NCBI GenBank assembly: GCA_963204795.1
Contig: CAUJHX010000182.1
Span: 56,903 to 120,902, forward strand
Direction of reading: 5' to 3'
DNA from: Pseudomonadota bacterium
GTDB taxonomy: Bacteria > Pseudomonadota > Gammaproteobacteria > Steroidobacterales > Steroidobacteraceae
DNA length: 64,000 nt
Part shown: piece by piece, positions 1-64,000 of the stretch
How positions within the stretch are numbered: position 1 is the first letter of the stretch
Layout of the letters: each line of letters opens with the position of its first letter
Notes under the pieces: generated by a model
What the model was told of the DNA's origin: nothing
Databases searched by the model: none
Seen by the model: only the letters and a program-made list of their open reading frames with translations
Program-made: the position numbers and the translations under genes

Positions 1-194
1 TCGACCGTGGTCTGCTGGGTCTCCGAGACGATGGTGCTGACGGCCTCGGTCAGCCGCGCCAGCACCCCGCGTTGGTACTCGGTCTTGGCGTGCGCCTGCA
101 GCCAGTTTGACGCCGCATAGAGGGCCCAGGACGCGATGGCGATGACCAACGGGATGAGCGCCTGAACGAGCTGCGGCAAGATTTCCTTCATCAT
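1..194 (-). CDS. holin-like small membrane protein (N-terminal part only; gene runs off the left edge)
   Basis: Not in the ORF track because it is truncated. ATG at 194-192 overlaps the TGA of the upstream lysin gene (ATGA). An AGGAGA RBS lies 9 nt upstream. Hand translation MMKEILPQLVQALIPLVIAIASWALYAASNWLQAHAKTEYQRGVLARLTEAVSTIVSETQQTTV shows one N-terminal hydrophobic helix. It sits directly after a lytic transglycosylase gene. Confidence 0.4.
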   Translation of the reverse strand, partial: MMKEILPQLVQALIPLVIAIASWALYAASNWLQAHAKTEYQRGVLARLTEAVSTIVSETQQTTV

Positions 195-1006
195 CTGGAC
201 TTTTCTCCTGGCTTCTGCTTGGCGGCTGCCCCGCCCGTGATGGATGCGCGCATGGCGGCGAGGGTCCTGACGCGCTCGGTCACCCAGCCCGACGAAACGG
301 CGCCACAGCGCCCGCCCGTCCCGTAGGCGGCAAACGTCCCTGCGTCGCCAGCGCACTGCGTGCGGGCGCGCGCCAAGGCGCGCATGCCGACCTCGAAGCA
401 TCGCCCGAGGGCCTCCGGGCTCGTGCCAAGGAGCTGGCGCGCGATCTGCTCTTGGTCAGCCTTGCTCTGAGCCTTCTTGCGCTCGTCCTCACTGATCCAG
501 GAAGCGTTCTGCGCGATCTGGTCGGGCATGATCTGCATCAGGCACGACTCATTGGCTGGCCCGCGCCCCATTGGCGGGGCGCCGATCTGCACGTCTTCCC
601 GGAGCCCGCTCTCGTGAAGCGCGACCGTCGCGGCGAAGAGAGAGAGCGACTGCACCTGTCCTTTGCCGCCGCCCCAGCGCAACGGAGTGCACTCGAAGTC
701 GACGTCGCCGCTCGGCAGCTTGCAGGTCACCATGCGGTTCGCCGTCGCGACCAGGGTCTTGGCGATTACAGCGATGCGCGCCTCGGCTGTCGCCCGCTGC
801 TCGTGGCGTACCCAGCCACCACGGAAGGCGTTCCAGCGCGGCGGAACGCAGAGCACGCCTGTGCCCTCGCACACGGGGGCCAGTGAGCACGTCGGGGTCT
901 TCGCGTCGGCGCCGCACGTGTCGAGCACCTCGAAGCTGTAGACGCTAGACCCCGCGGCCGAGTGAGCAGTCAAGAAGGCGGCGAGCGCCACGGAAAGAGC
1001 CGGCAT
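191..1006 (-). CDS. secreted SLT-type lytic transglycosylase (endolysin candidate)
   Basis: 271 aa. Signal-like N-terminus MPALSVALAAFLTAHSAAG. SLT-type motifs ALHESGLRE (catalytic Glu-Ser) and CLMQIMP (GLMQ-like). Confidence 0.75.
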   Translation of the reverse strand: MPALSVALAAFLTAHSAAGSSVYSFEVLDTCGADAKTPTCSLAPVCEGTGVLCVPPRWNAFRGGWVRHEQRATAEARIAVIAKTLVATANRMVTCKLPSGDVDFECTPLRWGGGKGQVQSLSLFAATVALHESGLREDVQIGAPPMGRGPANESCLMQIMPDQIAQNASWISEDERKKAQSKADQEQIARQLLGTSPEALGRCFEVGMRALARARTQCAGDAGTFAAYGTGGRCGAVSSGWVTERVRTLAAMRASITGGAAAKQKPGEKSR

Positions 1007-1039
1007 GGCGGCGGAGCCTAAGTCGCTTTCGTCATCCGG

Positions 1040-2059
1040 TCAAAATCGAGCCAGCCTGCCGAACCAGTAGCCCGCGCCGATTCCGACGATGAGTCCAGAC
1101 GTTGCGGCGGCTATGCCGGGCCACGGAGAATCCGTTTCGTACACGTCCACTGGAACGAGTTTCCTGTTGAGCGTGCACGTCGCCGCTTCATCGACGCCGA
1201 GTCCAGACACGGGAACAGATGTACCAGCGCACGTGAGCCCTTGGTTCAGACGCGGAGCCAGGAACGTCTTCCAGATCGCGCGCTGCGCATACCTTGAGAT
1301 GAAAACATGATCCGGCTCCGCGTTGCCGCCATAGCTCAGGTTCCAGGCGTTCCCGATTGCTGCGATGTCAGGCATCGGCATCGTATCCCACGTGCGCGTG
1401 ATTGGGACGGTGCCGCTGGCAGTTGGTCGGTTCACGGTGATCGTGACCGAGGGCGGCGGCGGCCCTGCGACCAGCTCGTTCAGATCGTACGATGGGACGG
1501 TGACTGCGCCAGACAAGTTGTCCTGCACATAGTCCATGATGGCCTCCGCGGCCTCCGCGGTGCTCGTGACCTGCTTCGAGTGTGACGAGATCCCGGTGAA
1601 CGCGTTGACGAACAGGCGCTGGTCGCGCGCGGCCTTGAGCGCGTACTTGCCCCAGATGTCGAGGTCCGGCTGATGCAGCGCGCCGCTGTAGACCTTCTGC
1701 ACTACGGCGCCGTCCAAAGAAATGACGCCGTCGATCCATGCGGCGTCCGGGCCGGCGAGTACGCGTTTCAGAAACTGGTTGCCCGCGCTGAAGCCGACCA
1801 GTGTGACGCTGCGGATCTTGTAGCCCTTCAGGCGGCGGAGCAGCGGGCGGAGGATCGAACCCTGCGGATCCTGGGCCTTGAGCGAGTCGGCAGTGCGGTT
1901 GAAGCCGGCCGACGCAAGGACTTCGCCTTCGGCCATCTGCGGCTCGACACCGATCACGACGGGCGGGTTGGCGAAAAGGGTCAGGTCTTGAGCGAGCGCC
2001 CGGAAGGACTCCTGGGGCGGGGTCGCGAACGCGGACACAACCACGTCGGTCTCTGACAT
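1040..2059 (-). CDS. alpha/beta-hydrolase-like protein with C-terminal membrane anchor (possible lysis-associated esterase)
   Basis: 339 aa. Nucleophile elbow VGFSAGN (GxSxG). C-terminal hydrophobic helix GIAAATSGLIVGIGAGYWFGRLARF. Adjacent to the lysin gene. The esterase role is inference. Confidence 0.5.
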   Translation of the reverse strand: MSETDVVVSAFATPPQESFRALAQDLTLFANPPVVIGVEPQMAEGEVLASAGFNRTADSLKAQDPQGSILRPLLRRLKGYKIRSVTLVGFSAGNQFLKRVLAGPDAAWIDGVISLDGAVVQKVYSGALHQPDLDIWGKYALKAARDQRLFVNAFTGISSHSKQVTSTAEAAEAIMDYVQDNLSGAVTVPSYDLNELVAGPPPPSVTITVNRPTASGTVPITRTWDTMPMPDIAAIGNAWNLSYGGNAEPDHVFISRYAQRAIWKTFLAPRLNQGLTCAGTSVPVSGLGVDEAATCTLNRKLVPVDVYETDSPWPGIAAATSGLIVGIGAGYWFGRLARF

Positions 2060-2120
2060 ATGCGGAGGCTACCACGAGCAAGAAGCTCGCGGCTATGGGG
2101 CGTCTCTCCAGCTCGCCCAA

Positions 2121-2804
2121 TCACCACTCCAACCACCGGACGACCGGCTCTGGCACCGGCAAGCCCCGACTCCGACGCTCGCAGGCGCGCCACACGATCA
2201 CACCGTACGCGGTCGCGTCGTTGCTGCTGGACACCATGAGCGGCTTCCCGGTGCGCTTGCTGAGCATGGGTGAGCCGGTCAACGGATCGAGCTTGGGCTT
2301 CTTGGTCTTCTTGAAGCTCGGGCGGCGGTTGAGCACGTAGATGACGCTCGGCGGGTGCTCGCGCCAGAGGCCCGCCGTGCGGTCTTTGCCTTCCAGAAAG
2401 TTCAGGCGAAGCAAGAACGCCAGCACGCCCGTGTCGGGGTCGAGCATGGTCAGCGCGTGGCGCACATGTTCCTCCGCATGCACGAATGGCGGGTTGCCGA
2501 TCACCGCGTCGAAAAACACGCTGGGCTCGTAGTCCAGGAAGTCGCCCTCAATGAACTCGTCCAATGGGACCGCGTCGAGAGCTTCTTGCCGACGCAGGTC
2601 TACGCCTACAAGGGTTTCTGGAGCAAGCCGTCGTCCGATGGCGTCGGCGAACGCCCCTTTGCCTACGCTCGGCTCCAGGATGGAGCTGCGCACCGACACG
2701 AGCTTGTCTGCTAGAAGCCGCTCGCAGATCGCCGCGGCACAGCCGAACGGCGTCCAGTAGCCGTCCAGCTCTTCGCGCTCACTGCCCCTGTTTGCGGCGC
2801 TCAT
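2121..2804 (-). CDS. orphan N6-adenine DNA methyltransferase
   Basis: 227 aa from ATG 2804 (the track ORF starts at an upstream GTG). Motif I EPSVGKGAF and motif IV GNPPF. No adjacent restriction-enzyme-like gene. Confidence 0.8.
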   Translation of the reverse strand: MSAANRGSEREELDGYWTPFGCAAAICERLLADKLVSVRSSILEPSVGKGAFADAIGRRLAPETLVGVDLRRQEALDAVPLDEFIEGDFLDYEPSVFFDAVIGNPPFVHAEEHVRHALTMLDPDTGVLAFLLRLNFLEGKDRTAGLWREHPPSVIYVLNRRPSFKKTKKPKLDPLTGSPMLSKRTGKPLMVSSSNDATAYGVIVWRACERRSRGLPVPEPVVRWLEW

Positions 2805-6153: not shown

Positions 6154-6491
6154 TGTTTCCTCCTGGCTTCCGAACCCTTTGCGTCGCATATGCACAACCA
6201 GAGCGAGCCGTCTTCACGGCCGCGCTGGAGCACATGCTCTCGGTGCGAGCACTGGGCTTCTTCGAGCTTGCCGGCCGTCGTCCCGAGCTGCACCGCTTTG
6301 TCCACGCACTCCGGTCGAGGTCGATGTTCCCTCGACGTGTATCCGATGATGCCAACGAACGCCCCGGCCATGAATGCCACCCCGATGATGGTCTTCTCTC
6401 GTGCCAGGACGCGCACAGGTATGAGCCACCCAAAAGCGAGGACCGTGACGGCGCCAATCACGGTCCAGAGCGCGTCGCCCCAGGTGAACAT
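6150..6491 (-). CDS. small membrane protein (113 aa, two hydrophobic helices) with Cys-rich tail
   Basis: ATG 6491 overlaps the upstream TGA by 1 nt (TGATG). Starts MFTWGDALWTVIGAVTVLAFGWLIPV, then IIGVAFMAGAFVGIIGY. Confidence 0.6.
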   Translation of the reverse strand: MFTWGDALWTVIGAVTVLAFGWLIPVRVLAREKTIIGVAFMAGAFVGIIGYTSREHRPRPECVDKAVQLGTTAGKLEEAQCSHREHVLQRGREDGSLWLCICDAKGSEARRKQ

Positions 6492-10490: not shown

Positions 10491-11380
10491 AGCTTCACCT
10501 CGAAGTAGCGTGGCAAATGCTCCATTGTGCGCGCGAGCCGCGACACGAAGTGCTCCGGCACCGCGAGCCCCGCCAAGACCGGGACAGCGGCGCGCAGCGA
10601 CAGCAGCGCCGCCTCGGCTGGCCCATTCGCTTGCGGGTGAGCAATGTCCCAGCCGACCTCTTGGTAGGCATCCAGCATCACTAGCTTCGCCATCTCGGTG
10701 TCCGCGAGCGCCAGGACCAACGCGGTCGCCCAGAGGGCCTGCTGCTCCTGCGACCACGCCCACGTATCGCGGAAGTTACCGAAGCGCAATCGCTCGCGCA
10801 GCTCGGGCGCCATCACCTTTGGGCCGACGCGCGTCAGGAACCTGACCTGCGTGTCGTCGAACCGCTCGTCTCGCAGCATATGCGAGCAGCAGAGCACCCA
10901 GAGGCGCGCGCGCTCCTTGCCGTTCCTGATGATCGTTTCGGGGGACACTAAACCGAAGGACCATCCGCTCAGCGCTTCGGGGTCCGGGAGCGGATAGGAA
11001 GCTGACTCAATCAGCGCGGGCCCCATGCACTTGAGCCACGCGGCGGGGTGGGCCTCCAGGCACTCTCCTAGTAGTGCCTGCGCGAAGCCCGATGCGGCTG
11101 TCACGCCGAGCCCGCCAAGCGACAAGATGCCAGGGCCAATGGCGTGGACCCCGTCCACCGTGCCGTTCCCCACTGCGGCCGACAAGGCGTAGACCTTAGT
11201 CCAGAAGTTGCTGTTCTTGTCGGCCGTCGGCCGTCGCGTTCCCACGGCGTACCACCCAGCATATGAGCCGACGTTGGCCCAGCGCAGCCAGACGTCTCCG
11301 TGGTCCGTTCGTCCCGGAGCATCGTTCGGAAGGTCGAACGGATCGTCCACGAGACCAGCAACGCGGTACGGCGACGCCAT
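10487..11380 (-). CDS. hypothetical protein, first gene of the leftward operon (297 aa)
   Basis: ATG 11380 has no SD. It lies 8 nt downstream of the TAGCAG -10 element and 1 nt from the GCTAGC pair. Confidence 0.65.
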   Translation of the reverse strand: MASPYRVAGLVDDPFDLPNDAPGRTDHGDVWLRWANVGSYAGWYAVGTRRPTADKNSNFWTKVYALSAAVGNGTVDGVHAIGPGILSLGGLGVTAASGFAQALLGECLEAHPAAWLKCMGPALIESASYPLPDPEALSGWSFGLVSPETIIRNGKERARLWVLCCSHMLRDERFDDTQVRFLTRVGPKVMAPELRERLRFGNFRDTWAWSQEQQALWATALVLALADTEMAKLVMLDAYQEVGWDIAHPQANGPAEAALLSLRAAVPVLAGLAVPEHFVSRLARTMEHLPRYFEVKL

Positions 11381-20923: not shown

Positions 20924-20940
20924 TGGCGGTGACGCGTTCT

Positions 20941-21061: not shown

Positions 21062-21067
21062 GACCCC

Positions 21068-27772: not shown

Positions 27773-27801
27773 ATGACATATGAGCGCGCAGTGGTTACTG
27801 T
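27773..27801 (+). promoter_or_regulatory. promoter candidate, leaderless design, overlapping a hairpin
   Basis: ATGACA (27773-27778), N17, TACTGT (27796-27801), N9, ATG 27811. A GCGCGCA/TGCGCGC stem lies at 27784-27790 and 27801-27807. Confidence 0.45.
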
Positions 27802-31766: not shown

Positions 31767-31776
31767 GCATATGCGC

Positions 31777-39967: not shown

Positions 39968-39996
39968 TTGACCGACGCATATGGGCCCGGTAGGCT
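39968..39996 (+). promoter_or_regulatory. promoter candidate for the polybasic-protein / capsid gene block
   Basis: TTGACC (39968-39973), N17, TAGGCT (39991-39996) in a 260-bp intergenic region. The leader is about 70 nt. Confidence 0.5.
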
Positions 39997-43406: not shown

Positions 43407-43457
43407 CGCCACTTATGGCACCGGGACCAATCCCGGGTACTCCAATCGGAGGCACAT

Positions 43458-46171: not shown

Positions 46172-46842
46172 CGTACCACTCCAGCATGGGCGCGGATCTG
46201 ATCCCGGGGACGTTCCCGAGCAGCGTTTCAGCTGCCGCACGCAGCGAACTCGTGCCTGCGTTCAACATGTCGCCGAGCGCGAACCTGATGGCGTCGCCAC
46301 CGCCCGCTTCGCCGGTCCGGCCGAGCGGGAATCTCGCGCCCGCACCGACGCTGCCGGCGATTCCGGCCTGCTTGGACGCGACATGGCTGGCCGCTCGCAG
46401 CTACTGCGAGACGTACCCAGCGGGCAACGGTCCGGACGCGACCGCGAACACCATCTGCTCCATCGGGCGATCTCAGCCGGCCTGGTACTCCCAGGTGCAG
46501 TCCACGCCGGCCTGCGGCGGCGGCGGGACGGTTCCGGCATATGTTCCGCCTCCCGCCTACGTCCCGCCGGTCCAGACGCCACCCGTGCCCGAGCCCGAAG
46601 CGAAGGACGCGGCGGAGCCGAACTACATGCTGTGGGGCGGCTTGGCTCTACTGCTCGCTGTCGCCGGCGGCGGCGTCTACTACTACTCGCGTGGCGGGAA
46701 GAGGTATGCCGCCAACCAGAAGCGTTCATCGGCCGGGGTGCGCAAACTGATCCGTCAACTGGATGCGGCGGCCAAGGAGCCAGATCCGAACCCCGCGGAA
46801 ATCAACGCGCTGTTGCGCAAGATCCGGGACAGAACGAAGTGA
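46168..46842 (+). CDS. membrane protein (224 aa), paralog of 32395-32736
   Basis: Starts MTYHSSMGA. Contains EPNYMLWGGLALLLAVAGGGVYYYSRGGKR, followed by a basic helical tail. ATGA overlap. Confidence 0.7.
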   Translation: MTYHSSMGADLIPGTFPSSVSAAARSELVPAFNMSPSANLMASPPPASPVRPSGNLAPAPTLPAIPACLDATWLAARSYCETYPAGNGPDATANTICSIGRSQPAWYSQVQSTPACGGGGTVPAYVPPPAYVPPVQTPPVPEPEAKDAAEPNYMLWGGLALLLAVAGGGVYYYSRGGKRYAANQKRSSAGVRKLIRQLDAAAKEPDPNPAEINALLRKIRDRTK

Positions 46843-52601: not shown

Positions 52602-52964
52602 ATGAGCTACTACCAGATGCCCAACAACGGACTCTCGGCCGGCTACTACCAGCAGCTGCCGGTGGCCACTCCGCTCTGGCAGGAAGCGCCGGTGCCAGGC
52701 TGGGGCGTGAACCCGCTTCGCGCCGGCCCGCGGCGCGTCGGCGTCGGCGCATATGCGACGCCGGTTCCAGGTTGCGGGTCCTGCGGGTCCTACAGCGACG
52801 ACGTGCCCTTGAACAGCGCCGTGCTGCCGCGCTACGCGCCCATCGGTGCGGCGGGCTCAGAGGAGACGACCTACGGCGTGGTCGCCATGGCCGCCGCTGG
52901 CGGCATCGTGCTCGGGCTGGCCTTCGGGTGGCTCTGGTTCGCGAACAAGCCCATGAAGGCATGA
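52602..52964 (+). CDS. tail-anchored membrane protein (120 aa)
   Basis: ATG 52602 with an AGGAG RBS. Starts MSYYQMPNNG. C-terminus YGVVAMAAAGGIVLGLAFGWLWFANKPMKA. Confidence 0.65.
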   Translation: MSYYQMPNNGLSAGYYQQLPVATPLWQEAPVPGWGVNPLRAGPRRVGVGAYATPVPGCGSCGSYSDDVPLNSAVLPRYAPIGAAGSEETTYGVVAMAAAGGIVLGLAFGWLWFANKPMKA

Positions 52965-54131: not shown

Positions 54132-55485
54132 TCAGCTCGCTTGCCATGCCGACACGGGAGGCCAGCACTCGCTGTTGGACGGCGATGGCCGAGGCACGCC
54201 GCCCACCGAGGCAGAACTCGACATCCCGTACGCGTCGCCGTCCGAGCCACCGCTTCTGGAGTGCGGCGTAGTCTACTCGGCTGACTGGAAGAAGTTCGCC
54301 GACGGGATGGCTCGCCACGCTCGCGCGCAGGCGCTCGCCCTGGCCGCGGCCGGCATTGGGGTCCGCCTGCAGTCGATCAGCAGCGAGGGCATGTTTCTGG
54401 ACAGCGACGTCCGCTCCGAGGTGCGAGACGAGGTTGCCCACCTGACGAACGTCACCATGAAGAGCGTGATGATCGCAGTGCGGCAGGCGGTGTTTCACAG
54501 CGCCGACTTCGTGCGCAACCTTGTTGTGCCTGCCGGCGGTCGCTTGGTGGACTTCGAGCTGGAGCAGCGCATCTACCAGAACACCATCATCTACACGTCG
54601 CTGGAGCGAGATCGCGTCTCGCCCGTGCTCATCGACATCTTCAAGCGCTGCGCCGAGCTATGGGTGCCGTGTCATCAGAACGCTCAGGCGCTCGTCAGCA
54701 GCGGCATGCCCGAGGACAAGGTGCACGTCATCCCGTACCCATATGACCCGGCAGGACCGGTCTGCAAGATCCCGGCGCCTCGCGGCCATGAGCGCGTCCC
54801 GGAGGGCAAGCGGTTCTACAGCATAGGCAAGTGGGAGCCTCGGAAGAACCACGCCGGCCTGCTGATGGCGTTCCTTCGGGCCTTCACGCCCAAGGACAAG
54901 GCGTCTCTCGTGCTCAAGGTGCACGGCTGGGGCGCCTGGGAGGGCTACCCGGACATCCAGCAGGCGCTCACGCTGTGCGGGGAAGACCCGGTCGTGCGCG
55001 CGAACGGCTGGACGGACATCAACCTGCGCAAGCGCGTGAAGATCATCACGGACAAGATCAGCGACGCGGAGATCGTGGCCTTGCATGCGCAGAACAACAT
55101 CTACGTGTCGGCCTCGCACGGCGAGGCGTGGGATCTACCAGCCTTCGACGCCAAGTGCGCCGGGAACCGGCTCGTGCACGTTGGATTCGGCGGAAGCGCG
55201 GACTATGCCGACGACGCCGACGTCTGGTTGGGGTACAGGCTGAAGCCCGTGAACAAGGTCTACGGCTGGGAGGAGTGCAACTGGGCCGAGTACGACATGG
55301 AAGAAATGGTTGCTTCCTTGCGCATCGCCCAGCCGCCGACGAAGCGCGTGCACCCGAAGGGCTTCAACGCGCGCTTCAGCGCACATGCGGTAGGCGAGAA
55401 GATGAAGGATCGCATCTTGCGCGTGGCTGCCAGGAGCCATGTCGAGCTGCCAGCGATGCTGGAGCGAGCTGGGTCGTTCGGATGA
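54118..55485 (+). CDS. GT-B fold glycosyltransferase (GT4-like)
   Basis: About 455 aa (alternative ATG at 54094). Contains FYSIGKWEPRKNHAGLLMAF, VSASHGEAWDLPAFDAKCAGNRLV (E-x7-E-type region), and spacing typical of retaining GT4 enzymes. Confidence 0.65.
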   Translation: MTLVDQLACHADTGGQHSLLDGDGRGTPPTEAELDIPYASPSEPPLLECGVVYSADWKKFADGMARHARAQALALAAAGIGVRLQSISSEGMFLDSDVRSEVRDEVAHLTNVTMKSVMIAVRQAVFHSADFVRNLVVPAGGRLVDFELEQRIYQNTIIYTSLERDRVSPVLIDIFKRCAELWVPCHQNAQALVSSGMPEDKVHVIPYPYDPAGPVCKIPAPRGHERVPEGKRFYSIGKWEPRKNHAGLLMAFLRAFTPKDKASLVLKVHGWGAWEGYPDIQQALTLCGEDPVVRANGWTDINLRKRVKIITDKISDAEIVALHAQNNIYVSASHGEAWDLPAFDAKCAGNRLVHVGFGGSADYADDADVWLGYRLKPVNKVYGWEECNWAEYDMEEMVASLRIAQPPTKRVHPKGFNARFSAHAVGEKMKDRILRVAARSHVELPAMLERAGSFG

Positions 55486-55987: not shown

Positions 55988-57030
55988 TCCGCCTCTACGG
56001 TCACCACAAGGGCGAGAGTTCATTCGTCCAGGTCACCCGTGGCCTGCGAGCGGCGGCCAAGTCGGCCGAGCTGCTCGCAGGCGAGGTCGCCGTGGACATG
56101 CTGGAGCAGGAACGCGTGCAGCCGGGAGCAGACGCTCTCGTTGGGCTCTTCTGTGGCGCCCCGCTCAGCATCGCTCTGGGGCCGCGTATGGGGCTGCACA
56201 AGGAACACTGGTTGCTGCTCGCCCCGAACAGCGAAGGGATCCCACCGTTCCTGAGAGAGCCGCTGTCCGCGGCGACAGGGTTCCTGGCCCCCAGCTCGTG
56301 GGCCGCCGACGTCTTGCGGCGTGAGTTTCCGTCACACCGGGTGCTGGTCGCTCCGCACGGCGTGCACCCGGATGTGCATATGCCCTCGGAAGAGGACCGC
56401 GAAGCGCGAACCAAGGAATACTCGGCCGGCACGTTTCGCGTTGCGCACTTCACGAGCACGCTGGGCCAGCGCAAAGGGACACTGCAGCTCCTGAGCGCAT
56501 GGAGGAACTGGTCCGAGAAGCCAGCGGGAGCACAGTTGCTCATCGTGGCCAACCCGCTCGCGGTCAACGAGTACCTGTGGCGAGCGAAGGAAATGGGGGT
56601 AGATCCAAAGACGGTGGGCGTCGTCGCGAATCCGGAGGCGCCAGTCTCCGCGCTGGCGGCAGCGCTGCGTCACGCTCACGTCGTCTGCCAGCCATCGCGC
56701 GCAGAGGGCTTTGGGATCGTGCCGCTCGAAGCTCGGGCTTGCGGCGTTCCGGTCGTGATGACGAAGTGCACCGGACACCGTGAATTTTGGAGCCCGCAAG
56801 GCACCGTCACGGTCGCACACGGCGACCTGGAGCCGCTCGACGACTACCCGGGGGCCGTGGCGCCGTCTGTGTCATCTGAAGCCATCCGGCTGGCGCTTTC
56901 CGAAGCCTTTGAGACCTGGCTCGCGCTGTCCGATGAAGCGGCGCGCGACGCCGACTCTGTGCGCTGGGAATGGTCGTGGCAGAAGCAGAATGCACCGGTG
57001 CTCCAAGAGCTGGTTGACGGGGCGCGCTAG
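55984..57030 (+). CDS. GT4-family glycosyltransferase
   Basis: 348 aa from GTG 55984 (GTGA overlap). Contains SRAEGFGIVPLEARACGVPVVMT (the classic GT4 EX7E region) and FTSTLGQRKG. Confidence 0.75.
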   Translation: MIRLYGHHKGESSFVQVTRGLRAAAKSAELLAGEVAVDMLEQERVQPGADALVGLFCGAPLSIALGPRMGLHKEHWLLLAPNSEGIPPFLREPLSAATGFLAPSSWAADVLRREFPSHRVLVAPHGVHPDVHMPSEEDREARTKEYSAGTFRVAHFTSTLGQRKGTLQLLSAWRNWSEKPAGAQLLIVANPLAVNEYLWRAKEMGVDPKTVGVVANPEAPVSALAAALRHAHVVCQPSRAEGFGIVPLEARACGVPVVMTKCTGHREFWSPQGTVTVAHGDLEPLDDYPGAVAPSVSSEAIRLALSEAFETWLALSDEAARDADSVRWEWSWQKQNAPVLQELVDGAR

Positions 57031-57990: not shown

Positions 57991-58412
57991 TGGTTGGATA
58001 CGCGCACAGCCTGACGAGCTACACGACGAACGAGCTGTGGTACTCGGCGACGGCGACGGCCACCGCGACCACCACGGCGTTCGACTACTACCAGGGCGGC
58101 TTCAGTATGCCGGCGACGGCCACCTGGGACAACGGCGTGAACCCGGCGGCGGAGCTGGCCGCCCTGGCCCTTCGGAAGCTCGGGCGTCACCTGGTCGCCG
58201 ACGATCTGCGCGACCGCTGGCGCGAGTGGACCAAGTCCGCCAAGTGGCTAGAGGCCTACCTGCTGCGGCTTGACGTGCGCGACGAGGCCCTTCGCAGCCT
58301 GGCGAGGCATATGCGCCAAAGAGAGCCCAGGCGCCGGCCGCCACGAGCGCGAGCGCGCACCTGCAGCTTCAGCTCGGCGCGGGCGGCTCGCCCGCCAGAG
58401 GCCGTCTCGTGA
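57987..58412 (+). CDS. hypothetical protein (141 aa)
   Basis: Overlap-coupled to the upstream gene. Thr/Ala-rich N-terminus and Arg-rich C-terminus. Confidence 0.45.
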   Translation: MMVGYAHSLTSYTTNELWYSATATATATTTAFDYYQGGFSMPATATWDNGVNPAAELAALALRKLGRHLVADDLRDRWREWTKSAKWLEAYLLRLDVRDEALRSLARHMRQREPRRRPPRARARTCSFSSARAARPPEAVS

Positions 58413-58932: not shown

Positions 58933-61900
58933 GTGGAGCTGACCAAGAACCGCGCCGAGCTGGCCGTGCTGCGTGGCAAGCGCGCCCCAGAGCATATGGC
59001 CCTGTGGGTCCAGGCCTTCGCCGACGGCGACGAGGCACTGGCCCAGCGCTATGCCATCGCCGTCGCGACGTTCCTCGGTGACAGCACGGCCTCGGGCGAG
59101 GAGTGGGCGAGCTACGTCGGCAAGCTCTCGCCCCGCACGCGCGAGGCATATGCGTTCGCGGTCACGGAGTTCTTCGAGTGGGCAGCGCGCCAGCACGGTC
59201 AGATCGTTCCACCACACAAGGTGCTGCGCAAGGACGCCGAGGACTACGCGAACTGGCTCTCCAACCGACCGTTCTCGCTCACCGAAGAGAAGCTGAACGA
59301 CTTCGATCAGGAGCGACGCCGCACGATCTATGAGACCGTGGTGAAGATCGGGCCGGCGGACCGCCGCAGCATCTACGGAGCGCTGCCGGCGGCGATGAAG
59401 CCCGGCTACACGTTGGAGCTGCTGACGAGCACGCTGGGGCGCATGGTGCTGCACGACCTGCTCGACCGAAGCCCGACGCTCTCACAGGTACGCGTCGAGC
59501 ATCCGCGAGCAGGAATCGACCAGAACACCATCATGGTCCCCGGTCCCGATCCAGAGGGACCGTGGGTGCCCATGGAGCTGGCAGACGTCTTCCAGTATGC
59601 GATCCCGCGCCCGCGCGGCGTGTCTCGCTCCACCATCGCGCTCAGGCTCTCTGCGCTGAGCACCTTCTGGGACGTGCTCGCCCAGGGCGAGAACGTGCCC
59701 GGTGGCCACGCGATCATCCAGCACAACATCTTCAAGGGCATGAAGAAGCGCGTGACGCGCGGACTGAGCCGCGAACGCAAAGCGTCGGCGGCGTCGCGGC
59801 GCATGGACCCATCGCTCGTGCCGCGACTGCTCAACGCTGCGAACCTGGCCAAGACGCTCCCCGAGAAGCGCGACAAGGCGCTGTTGTACTTCCTGGTATT
59901 CACGGGATCTCGGCTTTCCGAGGCGGTCAACCTCCGAAGGGGGGAGCCTCCGGCGTCCGAGATCAACCGCTGGCCGGGGTGGTTCGTCGGCAACACGGAG
60001 CCGCCCGTCGTGCGCGTTCGGCGCAAAGGAGGCAAGCTCCAGTCGCTCCCGTTTCCCCCTGTCGCGCTGCGCGCGCTGGCAGACTTCCAGGCCGATCTGG
60101 ACAGGCGCTCCGCGCCGCTCAGCGCGCAGAGCAGCGACCCAAAGGCGCCGCACTACCTGCATCCCAACAGCCCGCGGTGGCGCTACCGCGAGCTGGCTCG
60201 CGCCTCCGACGCGCCGCTGTTTCCGCCGGTGCACTTCTGGGGCGCCAACAGCACGTACAACTACCAGGAGTTCAAGCCCAACGCCCCGAACACATATGGG
60301 CCTCCGACGTACCGCCGCTCCATGAGCAAGGCTGGCGTGTATCAGCTACTCGTGCGTCTCGCGCGCAGGGCCGGCCTGGTCGAGTCCGAGATCGAGCAGG
60401 TGCATCCACACGCGCTCCGACACTTCGCGGCAACCGCCATGGCGAAGGGCGGGAAAGACCTGCGCGAGATCCAGGCCATCCTCGGGCACGAGTCCGTCAC
60501 GACGACCGAGGGCTACCTGGCCGACATCGAGAACGTGGTGGCGCTCTCGGGCCAGGCCGAGATCCTGGAGTATCTGTCGCAGTTCGAGGGGGCGGCCGAG
60601 GCAGTGCCCCCGCCGCCCCCGCACGCGCCCAAGGCGCCTCCGAAGCGGGAGGTCATCGAGACCTACGGCATCCCGGCCCCGGAAGCCCCCAGGAGGCCGC
60701 CCAGAGAGCAGGAGCCGCAGGTTCCGGGGCAACCGCCACTGCGCCCGCCGAAGCCGCCGAAGCCGCCGAAGCCCGCCAAGGCCCCGCCGCCGGCCGTCGT
60801 CGCGGCAGCCCAGGCTGCGTCTCGCGTGCCGCCGGCGGAGACCGCAGCCGTCCAGGCGCTCGCTCCAGCATATGTGGCGCCAGAGGAGCTTCCGCCGCAC
60901 ACCCTGGCGGTCGTGCCGCACGTCACCTGGCCGGAGGCGGCGTCCATCCCGACGGCCGCCGGGCGCGTCACGGTCTACCAGGAGCCACCGGAGCCACGCG
61001 CGGCGCCCGAGCGCAAGATCGTGGCGGTCGAAGGCGATCCCATCCCGGAAGAGGTGAAGGCCGACATCGCGCTCAACCAGATCCGCGACAAGCAGAGCCC
61101 CGGCTCACCGGACGATGTCTACGAAGCGATGGAGCGCGGTGATCAGTGGGAGAGCATCGAGTTCACGCTGTTGCGACCCCGGAAGCGCCCGCGGGACGAC
61201 GACCTTGTGACCCTGAGCGGGAGCAAGGAGCGCAAGGACGAGCAGGTCCAGACGCGCTCACCCCGCCACGAGTTCCTGGCGACGTTCTACGATCCGTGGC
61301 CGCCGAACTACGGCATCGGGACCGTGAGCTTGCTTCCGTGGTTCACCAGAGGAAGGCCAGACGCGAAAGGGCGCGTCAAGGCTCCGAATGACGAGGGCGA
61401 ATGGGTTGAGATCCCACCGCTGCCGGTGCTTTCTCCGGAGCAGGTATTAGCTGAGACTACCGGTACGCATGTGCTCGACGGGCTAGAGGCGCTGTACGCA
61501 CTCTGGCTCACCGGAGATCCTGCGCAAGGAATTGCTCCGTCGCCGTCGAGAACCTTCGGCCTTGTGCGCTGGTACGGATTCTTTGCGCACACGACGGGAG
61601 CGTTGCAGGCGTATCTCCGCGACAAAAAGAAGGAGTACGACCGCATCGGCAGTTCTTCCATGGGAACACCCGTGGCCAATGTTCCGACATGGGTCGCATG
61701 GGACGTACTTGCAACCGTCGGCAAGAACGTGCGCGCCCACAAGGACGAATGGGTGCTGGCCTGGTTCCGAGAGAACGCCCACACCTACACCACTACGCTC
61801 AAGGCATATGAGCGCATGAAGGGCAAGGAAGCTAAGCCCGGAGAACAGGTCTTCACGCGCGCTTTTGAGGTGGCAACAGTCGAGGCTGAGTCTATGGCTC

Positions 61901-63597
61901 TGCGCACGACCTTGCCGGGGTGGTTTGCCGACAACGATCCAGTGCACGCCATCTACGAGCGAGATCCCAAGGAATGGGAGACGTTCGCGTCCTGGCTGGC
62001 CAACATCACGGGACAGAAGCTCGGCGCCGCTCGTCGCGAGGCTCGCGCTGACGCTGCCGAATATGCTGAGAAGTCGTGGGAGGAGAAGCGCGAGGAGGCG
62101 CGAGACCTCTTGCGGCAGCACACCGAGGTCATGGAGAAGTTGCGATTCATCCAGCTCATGCTGGCTGGCCAGCGTCCCGTGCTACCCGAGAGAGTCGACC
62201 GAAGCGTCATCCCCAGAACCGGGCAGGTGGACGATCTGCAAGCCGAAAAGTTGCTGGTAGAGTGGGAGCGGCAGGAAGTTGCGCGCGCGCTGCAGGCGCT
62301 CGGGATGCCGGATCCATTGGAGCTGCGAGAAGTGCGTAGCGCCGAAGAGTCGAGCGACGTCCAGGCCGCAAGCGACGCTAAGGCTGCCGAAGCGGAAGCC
62401 AAGGCTGCTGGCATCGACGTCTCAGAGCTACATCCGAAGCCCGAGAAGCATCCGCTCACCCCAGAGCGGGTCAACGAGCTACTGAAGAAGTACTTTCCGG
62501 CTCCGCCCGAAGAAGAGGACGCCAACCTGCTTCGTGGTAGCTCACTCTTCGACGCGCGGCTCCTCAACATCGACTACCGCAGCCACACGATCTCGCACAC
62601 GCCAGAGTACCGGGAGACGTTTGCGGAGCAGTACGACGGGCGCGATTCGGAGCTGGTCATGCGACGCGCGGCGCGCGCCATGTGGGAGTACGCCAAAAGA
62701 AACACCTTCCTGCTGCAGCCGCCGGAGAAGCGTACGAAGCGGAAGGAAGAGGGCTACGGCCCTCTGTATGCGGTGATGCTTTGCCACATTGCGTGGGTGG
62801 TCCCGGCCCCCGAGGAGATGGAGCGTCAAGCTGTCGCCTCCGGGCGCGTGAGCAAGCTCGGCCCCGAAGCGAGAAAGGACTACCTCGCTGCCCAGGCACA
62901 GCTGCTCTATGAGCTTGCATATGGGCGACGACCGGAGCCGAAGCTCAAGCTGACAGAGTCAGAGACTCAGGAAGAGCGAGTGGCCTACGTGATGCGCATG
63001 ATGGCCGAGAAGGGATCTCCGCGCACGGAAGCAGAGGTCAGGGCCGCCTGGGAGAGCTTCGACGTCGCGAACGTGATCTTCGGCGAGTCCGAGCTGGCCC
63101 CAGAAGCCGAATTGCGCGAGATCGCGCAGTACCTTGGGGCCGAGGGTTTTATGACAGCGCTCCCCACGCGAGAAACAGCCGAGGCCGGTCGCGCCGAAGA
63201 GCGCAAAGCCAGGCGAAAGGCGAAGCCCAAGGTTGCGGAAGCGGCCCCCGAGGTCGAGTGGGCCCCCAAGCTCAAAGAGGGCGAGCGCGTCATAGTCCCC
63301 GGCGTCCTCAAGCGAGCCCCCAAGCAGACCGGCAAGCCCGGCAAGCTCACGGCGAACGTGGGCGCAGCGATCACGTTCGAGTACATGACCAACGAGAGCG
63401 TGGGCGCCTGGTATCAGACGCGCTGCGAGTTCCTGCCGCCCGACGGCAAGAGGTACATGGCCAACAAGGGCACCGTGACCTACGTGAGCCCGGGCGCGAT
63501 GGCGCACAAGCGCAGGTTCCTGGTCAACGCGCGCGGCGTGCTGCCGTCGCCGTTGGCCATGATCGCTGCGATGAACCTAGCGGCGGTAGAGGCGTAG
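58933..63597 (+). CDS. giant tyrosine recombinase fusion protein (1554 aa)
   Basis: N-terminal SAM-like core-binding region (SPRTREAYAFAVTEFFEWAARQHG). Catalytic motifs FTGSRLSEAVNLR (Arg), RKGGKLQSLPF (Lys), HPHALRHFAAT (HxxR) and ILGHESVTTTEGYL (His and Tyr), all within about the first 530 aa. A Pro-rich linker follows (PPKPPKPPKPAKAPPP). The remaining roughly 900 aa show no motif I recognise. Confidence 0.8.
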   Translation: MELTKNRAELAVLRGKRAPEHMALWVQAFADGDEALAQRYAIAVATFLGDSTASGEEWASYVGKLSPRTREAYAFAVTEFFEWAARQHGQIVPPHKVLRKDAEDYANWLSNRPFSLTEEKLNDFDQERRRTIYETVVKIGPADRRSIYGALPAAMKPGYTLELLTSTLGRMVLHDLLDRSPTLSQVRVEHPRAGIDQNTIMVPGPDPEGPWVPMELADVFQYAIPRPRGVSRSTIALRLSALSTFWDVLAQGENVPGGHAIIQHNIFKGMKKRVTRGLSRERKASAASRRMDPSLVPRLLNAANLAKTLPEKRDKALLYFLVFTGSRLSEAVNLRRGEPPASEINRWPGWFVGNTEPPVVRVRRKGGKLQSLPFPPVALRALADFQADLDRRSAPLSAQSSDPKAPHYLHPNSPRWRYRELARASDAPLFPPVHFWGANSTYNYQEFKPNAPNTYGPPTYRRSMSKAGVYQLLVRLARRAGLVESEIEQVHPHALRHFAATAMAKGGKDLREIQAILGHESVTTTEGYLADIENVVALSGQAEILEYLSQFEGAAEAVPPPPPHAPKAPPKREVIETYGIPAPEAPRRPPREQEPQVPGQPPLRPPKPPKPPKPAKAPPPAVVAAAQAASRVPPAETAAVQALAPAYVAPEELPPHTLAVVPHVTWPEAASIPTAAGRVTVYQEPPEPRAAPERKIVAVEGDPIPEEVKADIALNQIRDKQSPGSPDDVYEAMERGDQWESIEFTLLRPRKRPRDDDLVTLSGSKERKDEQVQTRSPRHEFLATFYDPWPPNYGIGTVSLLPWFTRGRPDAKGRVKAPNDEGEWVEIPPLPVLSPEQVLAETTGTHVLDGLEALYALWLTGDPAQGIAPSPSRTFGLVRWYGFFAHTTGALQAYLRDKKKEYDRIGSSSMGTPVANVPTWVAWDVLATVGKNVRAHKDEWVLAWFRENAHTYTTTLKAYERMKGKEAKPGEQVFTRAFEVATVEAESMALRTTLPGWFADNDPVHAIYERDPKEWETFASWLANITGQKLGAARREARADAAEYAEKSWEEKREEARDLLRQHTEVMEKLRFIQLMLAGQRPVLPERVDRSVIPRTGQVDDLQAEKLLVEWERQEVARALQALGMPDPLELREVRSAEESSDVQAASDAKAAEAEAKAAGIDVSELHPKPEKHPLTPERVNELLKKYFPAPPEEEDANLLRGSSLFDARLLNIDYRSHTISHTPEYRETFAEQYDGRDSELVMRRAARAMWEYAKRNTFLLQPPEKRTKRKEEGYGPLYAVMLCHIAWVVPAPEEMERQAVASGRVSKLGPEARKDYLAAQAQLLYELAYGRRPEPKLKLTESETQEERVAYVMRMMAEKGSPRTEAEVRAAWESFDVANVIFGESELAPEAELREIAQYLGAEGFMTALPTRETAEAGRAEERKARRKAKPKVAEAAPEVEWAPKLKEGERVIVPGVLKRAPKQTGKPGKLTANVGAAITFEYMTNESVGAWYQTRCEFLPPDGKRYMANKGTVTYVSPGAMAHKRRFLVNARGVLPSPLAMIAAMNLAAVEA

Positions 63598-63599
63598 GG

Positions 63600-64000
63600 C
63601 TACTTGTACTGGCACACGTGGAAGCCTGACCCCAGTCGAGGCTCCGGTTTGCATATGCGGTCAGCGGGACAGTCGGGAGCTGACGGGTCGCAAAGCGCCC
63701 CGCGCCCCGCGGTGTCACACTTGTCGCCGCAGCGCACCTCGTCGATCTTTTTGTACGAGAAGATGACGCAGCACTTGCCGCCGCCAGGGCACAAAGTGGC
63801 CGTGTCGCAGCTCACGTGAACCCCGCCGGTGTATCCCATGGGAGAGCCGCACGGGTCGTACTTGCCTTGGAACTTTTCGTCCACGCAGAAGTTCTTGACG
63901 GTCGTGTCGCCAAGAGCGTGCTGTCCCGCGCAGCAGTTGTACTGGTTGTCGATGAAGGGGTTGTAGACGTCGACCACTTTGCAGCTCAGGCCAGTGCCAC
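63600..64000 (-). CDS. Cys-rich secreted-type protein, C-terminal part (5-prime end off-window)
   Basis: The frame stays open to the window edge. There are 20 or more Cys in about 130 aa (NCCAGQ, CPGGGKCC, CGDKC, CPADRIC). It converges on the recombinase gene with a 2-nt gap. Confidence 0.6.
   Translation of the reverse strand, partial: GTGLSCKVVDVYNPFIDNQYNCCAGQHALGDTTVKNFCVDEKFQGKYDPCGSPMGYTGGVHVSCDTATLCPGGGKCCVIFSYKKIDEVRCGDKCDTAGRGALCDPSAPDCPADRICKPEPRLGSGFHVCQYK

What the first reader, a model, noticed from the sequence alone, without database searches (positions are those of the whole stretch)
1..64000. CATATG, and especially GCATATGC, is many-fold over-represented across the element
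By eye I count about 27 CATATG sites (e.g. 2057, 6187, 23696, 27777, 31768, 39978, 43455, 58993, 59147). Eleven of them are the 8-bp palindrome GCATATGC, and 23693-23704 is the 12-bp palindrome GCGCATATGCGC.

With roughly two-thirds G+C, a simple base-composition model predicts about 5 CATATG and fewer than 1 GCATATGC in 64 kb. Iso-compositional palindromes are rare here: GTATAC about 3, CAATTG about 1, GATATC and GAATTC not seen.

Sites lie in coding DNA (often Ala-Tyr written GCA-TAT-G, or His-Met) and in intergenic DNA. Selection therefore seems to act on the DNA word itself. Enrichment rather than avoidance suggests a functional site. Candidates are the target of the orphan N6-A methyltransferase at 2121-2804, a condensation/packaging-protein site, or a host-wide word.
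Basis: partly seen in the sequence, partly recalled or inferred. Interest (0 to 1): 0.6.

Follow-up and report, generated by a model that had tools for sequence, protein, structure and literature searches.

The report
Virus clade saturated with CATATG palindrome
A 122-kb virus-like element, which has lost most other 6-letter palindromes, keeps the palindrome CATATG (often GCATATGC) about ten times too often by writing it with rare codons; only the sub-group of related viruses carrying one particular orphan DNA methylase shares this, so it resembles the unexplained "highly iterated palindromes" of cyanobacteria.

Summary

The window lies in a circularly assembled 122.6-kb virus-like contig with 63 CATATG (about 6 expected) and 26 GCATATGC (about 0.8 expected). 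These are its most over-represented 6-mer and 8-mer.

Codon-aware nulls give 11 for the window and 24-27 for the element. Tyr is TAT in 88% of xCA-Tyr-Gxx contexts against 14% overall. His is CAT in 60% of His-Met against 20% otherwise.

The word is not host-wide. The rest of the MAG has 0.03 sites/kb, which is a depletion, and eleven same-genus genomes have 2-5 GCATATGC per Mb against 212 here.

The trait is specific to one clade. Five relatives whose methylase is at least 61% identical hold 33 sites where 3.3 are expected. Relatives without that methylase hold 0-5 sites per 60-138 kb.

Sites are dispersed, unrelated to gene starts, and conserved in position (11 of 12, against 3.5 expected).

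My best reading is a HIP-like selected DNA word, probably the target of the conserved orphan N6-adenine methylase at 2121-2804.

The parts
2057..2062 (.). CATATG over the start codon (minus strand) of the 339-aa alpha/beta-hydrolase gene 1040-2059, 62 bp downstream of the methylase gene
   Evidence: The same position carries the site in relatives L102 and L105.
2121..2804 (-). Orphan gamma-class N6-adenine-type DNA methyltransferase, 227 aa, with motifs EPSVGKGAF and GNPPF and no separate recognition domain. It is the candidate writer on CATATG.
   Evidence: phrog_799, E 8e-35. M.TaqI catalytic domain by sequence and by fold; model pLDDT 87.8. It is the only (D/N/S)PP(Y/F) protein of methylase size in the element. 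Orthologs of at least 61% identity mark the CATATG-rich clade.
6186..6193 (.). GCATATGC, intergenic
   Evidence: Conserved in L102.
10876..10883 (.). GCATATGC in CDS 10487-11380 (minus), read as His-Met
   Evidence: Conserved in L106 and L107 at about 73% nt identity.
11260..11265 (.). CATATG in CDS 10487-11380 (minus), xCA-TAT-G phase
   Evidence: Conserved in L106 and L107.
20355..20360 (.). CATATG in CDS 19796-20923, xCA-TAT-G phase
23693..23704 (.). GCGCATATGCGC, a 12-bp palindrome, in CDS 23558-23857, read as His-Met
25701..25708 (.). GCATATGC, intergenic
27777..27782 (.). CATATG between genes 27220-27765 and 27811-28602
27971..27976 (.). CATATG in CDS 27811-28602, xCA-TAT-G phase
30935..30940 (.). 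CATATG in CDS 29078-31516, read as His-Met
31767..31774 (.). GCATATGC, intergenic
39978..39983 (.). CATATG, intergenic, upstream of the 770-aa gene. First of a group of three sites (39978, 40131, 40218).
40131..40136 (.). CATATG in CDS 40076-42388, xCA-TAT-G phase
40217..40224 (.). GCATATGC in CDS 40076-42388, xCA-TAT-G phase
43455..43460 (.). CATATG over the start codon of the capsid-like gene 43458-44423
   Evidence: Conserved in relative L098.
46538..46543 (.). CATATG in CDS 46168-46842, xCA-TAT-G phase
52749..52756 (.). GCATATGC in CDS 52602-52964, xCA-TAT-G phase
54740..54745 (.). CATATG in CDS 54094-55485, xCA-TAT-G phase
56376..56383 (.). GCATATGC in CDS 55984-57030, read as His-Met
58307..58314 (.). 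GCATATGC in CDS 57990-58412, read as His-Met
58993..58998 (.). CATATG in the 1554-aa tyrosine-recombinase gene 58933-63597, read as His-Met. First of six sites in this gene.
59146..59153 (.). GCATATGC in CDS 58933-63597, xCA-TAT-G phase
60293..60298 (.). CATATG in CDS 58933-63597, xCA-TAT-G phase
60869..60874 (.). CATATG in CDS 58933-63597, xCA-TAT-G phase
61805..61810 (.). CATATG in CDS 58933-63597, xCA-TAT-G phase
62918..62923 (.). CATATG in CDS 58933-63597, xCA-TAT-G phase
63651..63658 (.). GCATATGC in the minus-strand CDS that starts beyond the window end (63600-64334), xxC-ATA-TGx phase

Best explanation
CATATG, preferably as GCATATGC, is a highly iterated palindrome of a virus clade. It is a double-stranded DNA word held at about 0.5 copies per kb across the whole 122.6-kb genome, and it is kept there by selection on the DNA itself.

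**Shown**
- The word is written mainly by synonymous recoding with otherwise avoided codons (NCA-TAT-G and CAT-ATG). It is about twice as dense in non-coding DNA as in coding DNA.
- It is scattered without relation to gene starts or ends.
- Individual sites persist between relatives far better than neighbouring hexamers do.
- The flank preference is the same on both sides (G before, C after), which fits a reader with two-fold symmetry.

**Inferred**
Methylating CATATG would exempt this one palindrome from the sweeping loss of 6-bp restriction sites seen in the element.
- Methylation would also turn the word into a dense epigenetic label that is 17 times denser on viral DNA than on host DNA. 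Some viral or host machinery for replication, repair, recombination (the element encodes RecE/RecT) or genome packaging would then read that label.

This is the same logic proposed for HIP1 and the alternate HIPs of cyanobacteria.
For: **Enrichment and rank.** CATATG 63 against about 6 expected, and GCATATGC 26 against about 0.8 expected. These are the top 6-mer and top 8-mer.

**DNA-level cause.**
- Codon-aware nulls give 24-27 against 63 observed.
- Tyr is TAT in 28 of 32 xCA-Tyr-Gxx contexts, against 14% overall. His is CAT in 15 of 25 His-Met, against 20% otherwise. GCA-TAT is joint 16 times against about 0.9 expected.
- The peptide contexts themselves are not enriched: [SPTA]Y[VADEG] occurs 112 times against 110 expected.

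**Site properties.**
- Flanks are symmetric: G at -1 in 77 of 126 half-sites.
- No link to gene starts or ends.

**Conservation.** 11 of 12 aligned sites are kept in relatives at 73-83% nt identity, against 3.5 expected from phase-matched hexamers.

**Turnover.** Elsewhere, turnover happens by double synonymous change: CATATG in relatives corresponds to CCTACG, CGTACG or TCTACG in the element.

**Association with the methylase across the family.**
- Relatives with the methylase at 61% identity or more: 7/0.7, 5/0.5, 4/0.3, 10/0.7 and 7/1.1 (observed/expected). CATATG is the top palindrome in each.
- Complete or large relatives without this ortholog (two carry only 32-39% identical homologues): 1 site in 138 kb, 0 in 62 kb, 5 in 112 kb, 2 in 138 kb and 0 in 125 kb.

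**Nature of the methylase.** Sequence and fold are closest to M.TaqI, type I M subunits, PacII and CamA, all N6-adenine DNA methylases.

**Precedent.** In cyanobacteria, HIPs co-occur with cognate methylases and are positionally conserved (PMC4390886, PMC5861425).
Against: - The methylase's specificity is not known. It has 227 aa and no separate target-recognition domain, so it may have a short or relaxed target, or need a partner.
- Homologues at 38-55% identity sit at the same syntenic position in relatives that are not enriched (L108 1/0.2, L109 2/1.3, L111 0/0.9). Their alignment shows no obvious domain swap.
- The word-methylase association rests on what is probably a single evolutionary origin. 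It is therefore confounded with phylogeny.
- Methylation explains why the word is tolerated. It does not by itself explain why it is multiplied, and no reader was identified.
- Spacing is random rather than regular (CV 1.16). This differs from the quasi-periodicity reported for HIP1.
- The link to the host rests on metagenomic binning alone. No spacer or shared DNA connects the contig to the rest of the MAG.
Confidence: 0.45

Rival explanations
1. The word is the binding site of a virus-encoded DNA-binding protein with two-fold symmetry and has nothing to do with the methylase. Examples would be a genome-condensing, packaging or segregation protein, or a 'self' marker that spares viral DNA from a viral nuclease. 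The methylase would be an ordinary anti-restriction gene with another target.
For: - Symmetric flanks, dispersed sites and positional conservation fit any dimeric reader.
- The word is 17 times denser on the element than on the host, which makes it usable as a self label.
- No terminase or portal was recognised among the proteins scanned, so genome recognition might be unconventional.
- Methylase homologues exist in relatives that are not enriched.
Against: - No candidate reader was found.
- The two small gene modules next to the methylase are each missing from some members of the enriched clade.
- The only gene found here to track the trait across the region held is the methylase ortholog.
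Confidence: 0.28
2. The excess is a neutral by-product of a sequence-directed repair or conversion bias, either a very-short-patch-like drive or the methyl-directed ratchet proposed by Elhai. Such a bias turns near-cognate words into CATATG and restores mutated sites. The word itself would have no function.
For: - The synonymous neighbour CATACG/CGTATG is depleted: 14 against 24-37 expected.
- 25-60% of all positions that could encode the word synonymously do so.
- A repair bias would also mimic site conservation.
- Elhai proposed such a ratchet for HIPs (PMC4390886, section 3.4).
Against: - Neither the element nor the MAG has a Vsr or MutH homologue.
- No C5-methylase motifs occur in the element.
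- TATATG/CATATA is too rare in expectation (0 observed against 2.6) to be informative.
- The trait has lasted across divergence down to about 70% nt identity, with specific sites conserved. Xu et al. took this pattern as evidence for selection in HIP1 (PMC5861425).
Confidence: 0.12
3. The signal acts in RNA. CAUAUG, which appears in transcripts from either strand, would be a binding or cleavage word for an RNA-binding protein or nuclease.
For: - A DNA palindrome appears in mRNA whichever strand is transcribed.
- 46 of the 63 sites lie in coding regions, and five more overlap start codons.
Against: - Density is higher in non-coding DNA than in coding DNA.
- The 8-bp consensus is symmetric. An RNA reader does not need that symmetry.
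- Sites show no positional bias within genes or relative to gene ends.
Confidence: 0.05
4. The excess is an artefact of composition, codon usage, amino-acid content, a repeated element, or a host-wide word.
For: None remains after testing.
Against: - Markov and codon-aware nulls all fail to reproduce the counts.
- Flanks beyond 8 bp are unrelated, so this is not a dispersed repeat.
- The host and its genus are depleted in the word.
- Related viruses with the same G+C content have almost none.
Confidence: 0.02

Closest known systems
HIP1 (GCGATCGC) and the alternate highly iterated palindromes of cyanobacteria (Elhai 2015, PMC4390886; Xu, Lawrence & Durand 2018, PMC5861425; Rodriguez-Cruz et al. 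2026, PMC13756078)
   Same: - Short palindrome with GC flanks that is the most over-represented k-mer of the genome.
- Density of the same order: HIPs 500-2500 per Mb; here CATATG 513 per Mb and GCATATGC 212 per Mb.
- Present in coding DNA in several frames and in non-coding DNA.
- Created by nucleotide substitution.
- Positionally conserved beyond background.
- Co-occurs with an orphan DNA methylase.
- Function unresolved.
   Different: - The carrier is a virus-like element, not a cellular chromosome. Its presumed host is depleted in the word.
- The core is A/T (ATAT) in a 66% G+C genome.
- The candidate methylase is of the N6-adenine type and lacks a recognition domain, whereas HIP1 involves CGATCG and GATC methylases.
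- No periodic spacing.
- The rest of the genome has lost most other 6-bp palindromes.
Restriction-site (palindrome) avoidance in phage genomes, and protection by phage-encoded orphan methylases (Rusinov et al. 2018, PMC6286503; Murphy et al. 2014, PMC4190342)
   Same: - The element shows extreme avoidance: CGATCG, CTCGAG, GAGCTC, TTCGAA, AAGCTT, TCATGA, ATGCAT, AACGTT, GATATC, GAATTC and TACGTA all occur 0 times.
- It carries an orphan methylase, which would explain why one palindrome is exempt.
   Different: Avoidance and protection predict absence or neutrality of a site. They do not predict a ten-fold excess built with rare codons and conserved in position.
Word excess driven by very-short-patch repair (CCWGG in E. 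coli; from my own knowledge: Bhagwat & McClelland 1992; Merkl et al. 1992)
   Same: A methylase-linked word rises above expectation while a one-step neighbour falls.
   Different: - No Vsr homologue and no C5 methylase were found.
- The size of the excess is far larger than for CCWGG.
Dispersed functional oligomers such as Chi, FtsK KOPS and the Neisseria/Haemophilus uptake sequences (from my own knowledge)
   Same: A genome-wide selected word at roughly 0.5-1 per kb, read by DNA-processing machinery and able to distinguish own DNA from foreign DNA.
   Different: Those words are asymmetric and often strand-biased. This one is a perfect palindrome, so it carries no direction.

Membership tests
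Highly iterated palindrome (HIP) in the sense of Elhai and Xu | A short palindrome is the most over-represented k-mer, many-fold above Markov expectation, at hundreds per Mb | tested here: met
   CATATG is 11x over the trinucleotide model and GCATATGC is 30-37x. Both rank first. Densities are 513 and 212 per Mb.
Highly iterated palindrome (HIP) in the sense of Elhai and Xu | Occurs in coding DNA (several frames) and in non-coding DNA, and is not explained by peptide or codon usage | tested here: met
   Phases 1/0/2 hold 28/15/3 sites, with 12 intergenic and 5 at start codons. Codon-aware nulls give 24-27 against 63 observed. Peptide contexts are not enriched.
Highly iterated palindrome (HIP) in the sense of Elhai and Xu | Sites are conserved between related genomes more than background | tested here: met
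   11 of 12 aligned sites are conserved, against 3.5 expected from phase-matched hexamers. The relatives are not independent of one another.
Highly iterated palindrome (HIP) in the sense of Elhai and Xu | A methylase specific for the word is present whenever the word is abundant | tested here: inconclusive
   An orphan N6A-type methylase ortholog (at least 61% identity) is present in all six enriched genomes or fragments. It is absent from seven of the nine IMG/VR relatives searched, none of which is enriched. Its specificity is unknown, and 38-55% identical homologues occur without enrichment.
Highly iterated palindrome (HIP) in the sense of Elhai and Xu | The word is methylated in vivo | not testable with these tools
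Highly iterated palindrome (HIP) in the sense of Elhai and Xu | Quasi-periodic distribution along the chromosome (Xu et al. 2018) | tested here: not met
   Inter-site distances look random to slightly clustered: CV 1.16 against a null of 0.98, P = 0.07. With 63 sites the power is low.
Repair-driven word of the VSP/Vsr type | A Vsr-like mismatch endonuclease and a C5 methylase are encoded | tested here: not met
   PF03852 finds nothing in the MAG or the element. No PCQ/ENV motif protein occurs in the element. MutH is also absent.
Type II restriction-modification system of NdeI specificity carried by the element | A restriction endonuclease gene lies next to the methylase | tested here: not met
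   The conserved neighbouring 339-aa gene has a GFSAG serine-hydrolase motif. It is a core gene of the virus family and is more conserved than the methylase. The upstream small modules are dispensable within the clade.
Promoter or operator motif | Sites concentrate at fixed distances from gene starts | tested here: not met
   Distances to the nearest gene start or end do not differ from random placement (P = 0.1-0.9). Sites are spread uniformly within genes.

The most novel reading that the evidence does not exclude
A clade of large membrane-protein-rich viruses of high-G+C Gammaproteobacteria carries a sequence-encoded identity system. Nearly all 6-bp palindromes are erased from the viral chromosome. 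One palindrome, which is rare in the host, is multiplied about ten-fold and marked with m6A by a minimal orphan methylase. The result is a dense 'self' label that lets viral machinery (packaging, recombination-dependent replication or a host-DNA-destroying nuclease) tell viral DNA from host DNA. Similar single-palindrome saturations noted elsewhere in this scan (AGTACT, CGTWACG, unchecked) would make this a general and undescribed strategy of viruses.
Probability: 0.2. Interest if true: 0.85.

Novelty: new variant of a known kind. Interest (0 to 1): 0.62.

Why it matters
Highly iterated palindromes have been an open problem in cyanobacteria for thirty years. Part of the difficulty is that the word, its methylases and the cellular background are hard to separate there.

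This case offers a cleaner system:
- The same kind of word sits in a small, self-contained genome with a single candidate methylase.
- There is a sharp phylogenetic on/off contrast. Sister viruses have 0-5 sites per 100 kb, against 63 here.
- Competing palindromes have been removed from the background.

That makes the link between methylase and iterated palindrome directly testable. One would express one gene, read one methylome, and recode a few sites.

It also shows that a phage genome's word usage can carry a strong positive signal as well as the well-known negative one, restriction avoidance.

Tried and rejected
1. **Host-wide word.** Rejected. The rest of the MAG and eleven same-genus genomes are poor in the word.
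2. **Codon or amino-acid artefact.** Rejected.
3. **Dispersed repeat or longer motif.** The flanks show nothing beyond G/C at +/-1.
4. **Promoter, operator or terminator role.** No positional bias. The non-coding sites share no common context.
5. **Regular spacing.** Not seen.
6. **Full restriction-modification system.** The neighbouring 339-aa gene is an alpha/beta-hydrolase core gene.
7. **Second methylase in the element.** None found by motif. A 129-aa DPPY protein has no Pfam hit.
8. **Clade-specific partner gene.** The ORF at 2950-3618 is a fusion of two modules, and each is missing from some enriched relatives.
9. **Vsr or MutH homologues.** None.
10. **Close relatives in the phage GenBank collection.** None for the 20-kb query, window 20000-40000. 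A direct methylase search of IMG/VR also found none.
11. **CRISPR spacer or shared DNA linking the element to the MAG.** None.
12. **Read-level tests** (molecule ends at sites, miscalls at modified bases).
13. **Whole-record counts for the Logan, ENA and JGI relatives.** Not possible, because those records are not held.
14. **Literature search for CATATG over-representation in phages.** Nothing relevant.

Full report
**1. The observation**

The window has 27 CATATG at the listed positions and 11 GCATATGC. It has one GCGCATATGCGC at 23693-23704, 3 GTATAC, 1 CAATTG, and no GATATC or GAATTC. G+C is 65.9%.

The window is C182:56903-120902 of a 287-contig metagenome-assembled genome. C182 is 122,730 bp and its two ends repeat 141 bp, so it assembles as a circle of about 122.6 kb.

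Over the whole contig, CATATG occurs 63 times. Expectations are 11.1 from base composition, 6.0 from dinucleotides and 5.6 from trinucleotides. GCATATGC occurs 26 times against 0.7-0.85 expected. They are the most over-represented 6-mer and 8-mer of the contig. ATAT occurs 93 times; 63 of these lie in CATATG and 91 in CATAT or ATATG.

**2. Codon-aware tests**

I called 184 genes with a codon-usage model. Of the 63 sites:
- 28 are in phase xCA-TAT-Gxx;
- 15 are CAT-ATG (His-Met);
- 3 are xxC-ATA-TGx;
- 5 overlap start codons;
- 12 are intergenic.

Shuffling synonymous codons within genes gives 27.1 +/- 2.7 sites for the element and 11.2 +/- 1.8 for the window. Redrawing codons from the element's global usage gives 24.1 and 10.6. 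In both nulls the 17 non-coding and start-codon sites cannot move, so the coding excess is about 46 against 10.

The direct tests are clearer:
- Tyr is TAT in 14% of cases overall but in 28 of 32 xCA-Tyr-Gxx contexts.
- His is CAT in 20% of cases but in 15 of 25 His-Met.
- In Ala-Tyr-G, GCA and TAT occur together 16 times where about 0.9 is expected.

The peptide contexts themselves are not in excess. [SPTA]Y[VADEG] occurs 112 times against 110 expected, and His-Met 25 against 16. The word is therefore written mainly by synonymous choice, against the general codon preference.

**3. Not a host word**

The other 286 contigs (3.04 Mb, 67% G+C) hold 90 CATATG where 227-271 are expected. That is 0.03/kb against 0.51/kb on C182. 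No other contig is an outlier.

RpoB places the MAG among uncultured Gammaproteobacteria near the Chromatiales and Competibacteraceae. Eleven same-genus genomes hold 4-15 GCATATGC each, or 2-5 per Mb, which is fewer than the reversed control word. C182 holds 212 per Mb. The second refutation criterion is therefore not met either.

One caveat applies. The host link rests on binning only, because no spacer or shared DNA connects C182 to the rest of the MAG.

**4. What the element is**

The element encodes:
- a DnaB helicase with an intein, a DnaC-like loader, RecE- and RecT-like proteins, Ku, thymidylate synthase and thymidylate kinase;
- a tail-fibre-like domain, an M15 peptidase and a 1554-aa tyrosine recombinase;
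- many proteins with no family match.

Relatives in IMG/VR are 110-138 kb. Several have direct terminal repeats and are rated complete. I treat the element as a complete genome of an undescribed virus family.

It is also stripped of 6-bp palindromes. The following all occur 0 times: CGATCG (61-129 expected), CTCGAG and GAGCTC (49-81 expected each), TTCGAA, AAGCTT, TCATGA, ATGCAT, AACGTT, GATATC, GAATTC and TACGTA. GGTACC and AGATCT occur once each. The 4-bp palindromes are at expectation. This is the signature of restriction avoidance at 6-cutter sites, and CATATG is the single large exception.

**5. Distribution across the virus family**

The methylase at 2121-2804 has syntenic orthologs (ThyX, Tmk, small ORFs, methylase, 339-aa gene) on metagenomic contigs.

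In the five distinct relatives whose methylase is 61-86% identical (L102, L103, L105, L106, L107), CATATG is the top palindrome every time. Observed/expected values are 7/0.7, 5/0.5, 4/0.3, 10/0.7 and 7/1.1. Together that is 33 sites in 73 kb against 3.3 expected, and 13 of the 33 are GCATATGC. A 2.3-kb fragment of another close relative has 3 sites.

Relatives with a 38-55% identical homologue are not enriched (1/0.2, 2/1.3, 0/0.9).

Nine IMG/VR relatives were counted over the whole record (for the first two, for the rest):

| Record | Record length | CATATG sites |
|---|---|---|
| G001 | 138 kb | 1 |
| G002 | 62 kb | 0 |
| G023 | 112 kb | 5 |
| G024 | 43 kb | 0 |
| G025 | 95 kb | 2 |
| G026 | 138 kb | 2 |
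| G027 | 27 kb | 0 |
| G028 | 125 kb | 0 |
| G029 | 52 kb | 2 |

Seven of the nine have no methylase match at all, and G023 and G024 have only 32-39% identical homologues. The trait is therefore heritable and confined to one clade. It coincides with one methylase ortholog group, but it probably arose only once, so the association is confounded with phylogeny.

L110 is a useful intermediate. Its hydrolase is as close as L107's (75% identity), a TnpB gene sits where the methylase normally is, no methylase lies within the 21 kb held, and CATATG is only 5 against 2.5 expected.

**6. Behaviour of individual sites**

- Sites are scattered. Distances to gene starts and ends match random placement, and positions within genes are uniform.
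- Spacing is random to slightly clustered, with CV 1.16.
- The flanks are symmetric, with G at -1 in 77 of 126 half-sites and nothing further out. This fits a reader with two-fold symmetry acting on duplex DNA.
- Of the 12 cases where an element site falls in a stretch aligned to a relative at 73-83% nt identity, 11 are identical there. Phase-matched neighbouring hexamers predict 3.5. The relatives are not independent, so this is an indication rather than a P-value.
- A group of three sites just left of the window (C182 56453, 56494, 56610) is kept in L102 and L103, and two of the three in L105.
- Sites at window 10877 and 11260 are kept in L106 and L107.
- The two start-codon sites, at window 2057 and 43455, are also kept.
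- Where sites differ, the counterpart is typically CCTACG, CGTACG or TCTACG. Both rare codons have switched together.
- The synonymous neighbour CATACG is about two-fold depleted.

**7. The methylase**

It is 227 aa with motifs EPSVGKGAF and GNPPF. It matches phrog_799 'DNA methyltransferase'. By sequence it matches the catalytic domain of M.TaqI. By predicted fold (pLDDT 87.8) it matches M.TaqI, type I M subunits, PacII and CamA, all N6-adenine DNA methylases.

It has no separate recognition domain. It is the only methylase-like protein I could find in the element. The next gene downstream is a conserved alpha/beta-hydrolase (GFSAG motif), not an endonuclease. The upstream ORF at 2950-3618 is a fusion of two modules, each of which is absent from some enriched relatives. 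The methylase is thus an orphan. Its specificity cannot be read from sequence.

**8. Interpretation**

What is shown: a clade-specific, DNA-level, positionally conserved, dyad-symmetric iterated palindrome in a genome otherwise cleared of palindromes.

What is inferred: the orphan methylase targets the word. Methylation would exempt it from restriction pressure and make it a dense virus-specific mark that some machinery reads.

The closest known phenomenon is HIP1 and the alternate HIPs of cyanobacteria. There, word abundance tracks cognate orphan methylases (PMC4390886), sites are conserved by selection (PMC5861425), and recent work points to roles in DNA uptake and recombination (PMC13756078).

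The differences here are the viral carrier, the A/T core, a host that is depleted in the word, an adenine-type minimal methylase, and no periodicity.

A pure repair-driven ratchet remains possible. It lacks its known enzymes here, since neither Vsr nor MutH is present. A reader unrelated to the methylase is the main rival.

**9. Earlier notes of this scan**

Earlier notes (unchecked AI notes) describe similar single-palindrome saturations in other phages: AGTACT in Rak2-like jumbo phages, CGTWACG, and GGATCC. I did not test them. They suggest the phenomenon may recur.

One of them warned that such an excess can be a side effect of purging the core word in other contexts. I checked this, and it does not apply. 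The absolute density here exceeds base-composition expectation, the host and the sister viruses by 6- to 50-fold.

**10. Limits**

- Whole records of the Logan, ENA and JGI relatives are not held.
- Gene calls are my own.
- Host assignment is by binning.

Noticed in passing
whole window and whole contig C182: Thirteen or more 6-bp palindromes are absent or nearly so. CGATCG occurs 0 times against 61-129 expected, and CTCGAG and GAGCTC 0 times against 49-81. TTCGAA, AAGCTT, TCATGA, ATGCAT, AACGTT, GATATC, GAATTC and TACGTA are all at 0, and GGTACC and AGATCT at 1. The 4-bp palindromes are at expectation. The set that is purged differs between relatives: CTCGAG is missing from about two-thirds of the relatives sampled and GAGCTC from over half, while CGATCG is purged only in the CATATG-rich clade.
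   Followed up: partly
C182 56453, 56494, 56610 (window -449 to -287, just left of the window): Three CATATG sites lie within 160 bp at the 5' end and upstream of a 161-aa minus-strand gene. All three are conserved in L102 and L103, and the two at 56494 and 56610 in L105. L106 and L107 probably have sites at equivalent places. The site at 56610 lies inside a 10-bp inverted repeat (cctgctccag ... ctggagcagg).
   Followed up: partly
window 2950-3618 (minus strand): This 222-aa ORF joins two modules that occur separately in relatives. An N-terminal module of about 100 aa occurs in L102, L103 and L105. A C-terminal Cys-rich zinc-ribbon module (CPHCG...CDSCIKGTCGRCGF.C.C) occurs in L106 and L107. 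L102 is 92-97% identical in DNA and lacks about 284 bp here. A further ORF of about 50 aa probably fills 2805-2949 and overlaps the methylase start.
   Followed up: partly
window 1040-2059 (minus strand): The 339-aa protein next to the methylase has a GFSAG serine-hydrolase motif with invariant Asp and His residues and a Gly-rich hydrophobic C-terminus. It is a core gene of the virus family: 25 homologues down to 41% identity, and it is more conserved than the methylase.
   Followed up: partly
window 16105-18825: The DnaB-like replicative helicase is interrupted by an intein with a LAGLIDADG homing-endonuclease domain. The DnaB of relatives L110 and L112 is 479-486 aa and has no intein.
   Followed up: no
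L110:8255-9283: In one relative, a Cas12f1-like TnpB gene lies immediately upstream of the hydrolase gene, where the methylase sits in the other relatives. That relative has a lower G+C content (59%) and only weak CATATG enrichment.
   Followed up: no
whole contig C182: After CATATG, the most over-represented 6-mers are non-palindromic and contain TAG or TAC: CTACTA, TACTAC, TTGTAG, TGTAGA and GTCTAC, each 2.3-4.6x over the trinucleotide model. They may belong to the leaderless-promoter motif noted by another first-stage finding.
   Followed up: no
rest of the MAG (286 contigs): The presumed host strongly avoids palindromes containing CTAG: GCTAGC 51 against 325 expected, CCTAGG 11, TCTAGA 9 and ACTAGT 12. 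The element keeps GCTAGC at expectation (35 against 29-34). GCTAGC is therefore also 17 times denser on the element than on the host.
   Followed up: partly
C182 43950-56453 (mostly left of the window): The longest stretch free of CATATG is 12.5 kb. It covers a minus-strand block that includes the 1211-aa protein and the 542-aa tail-fibre-like protein. The homologous block in L103 is also free of sites. The gap is not significant on its own (P = 0.075).
   Followed up: partly
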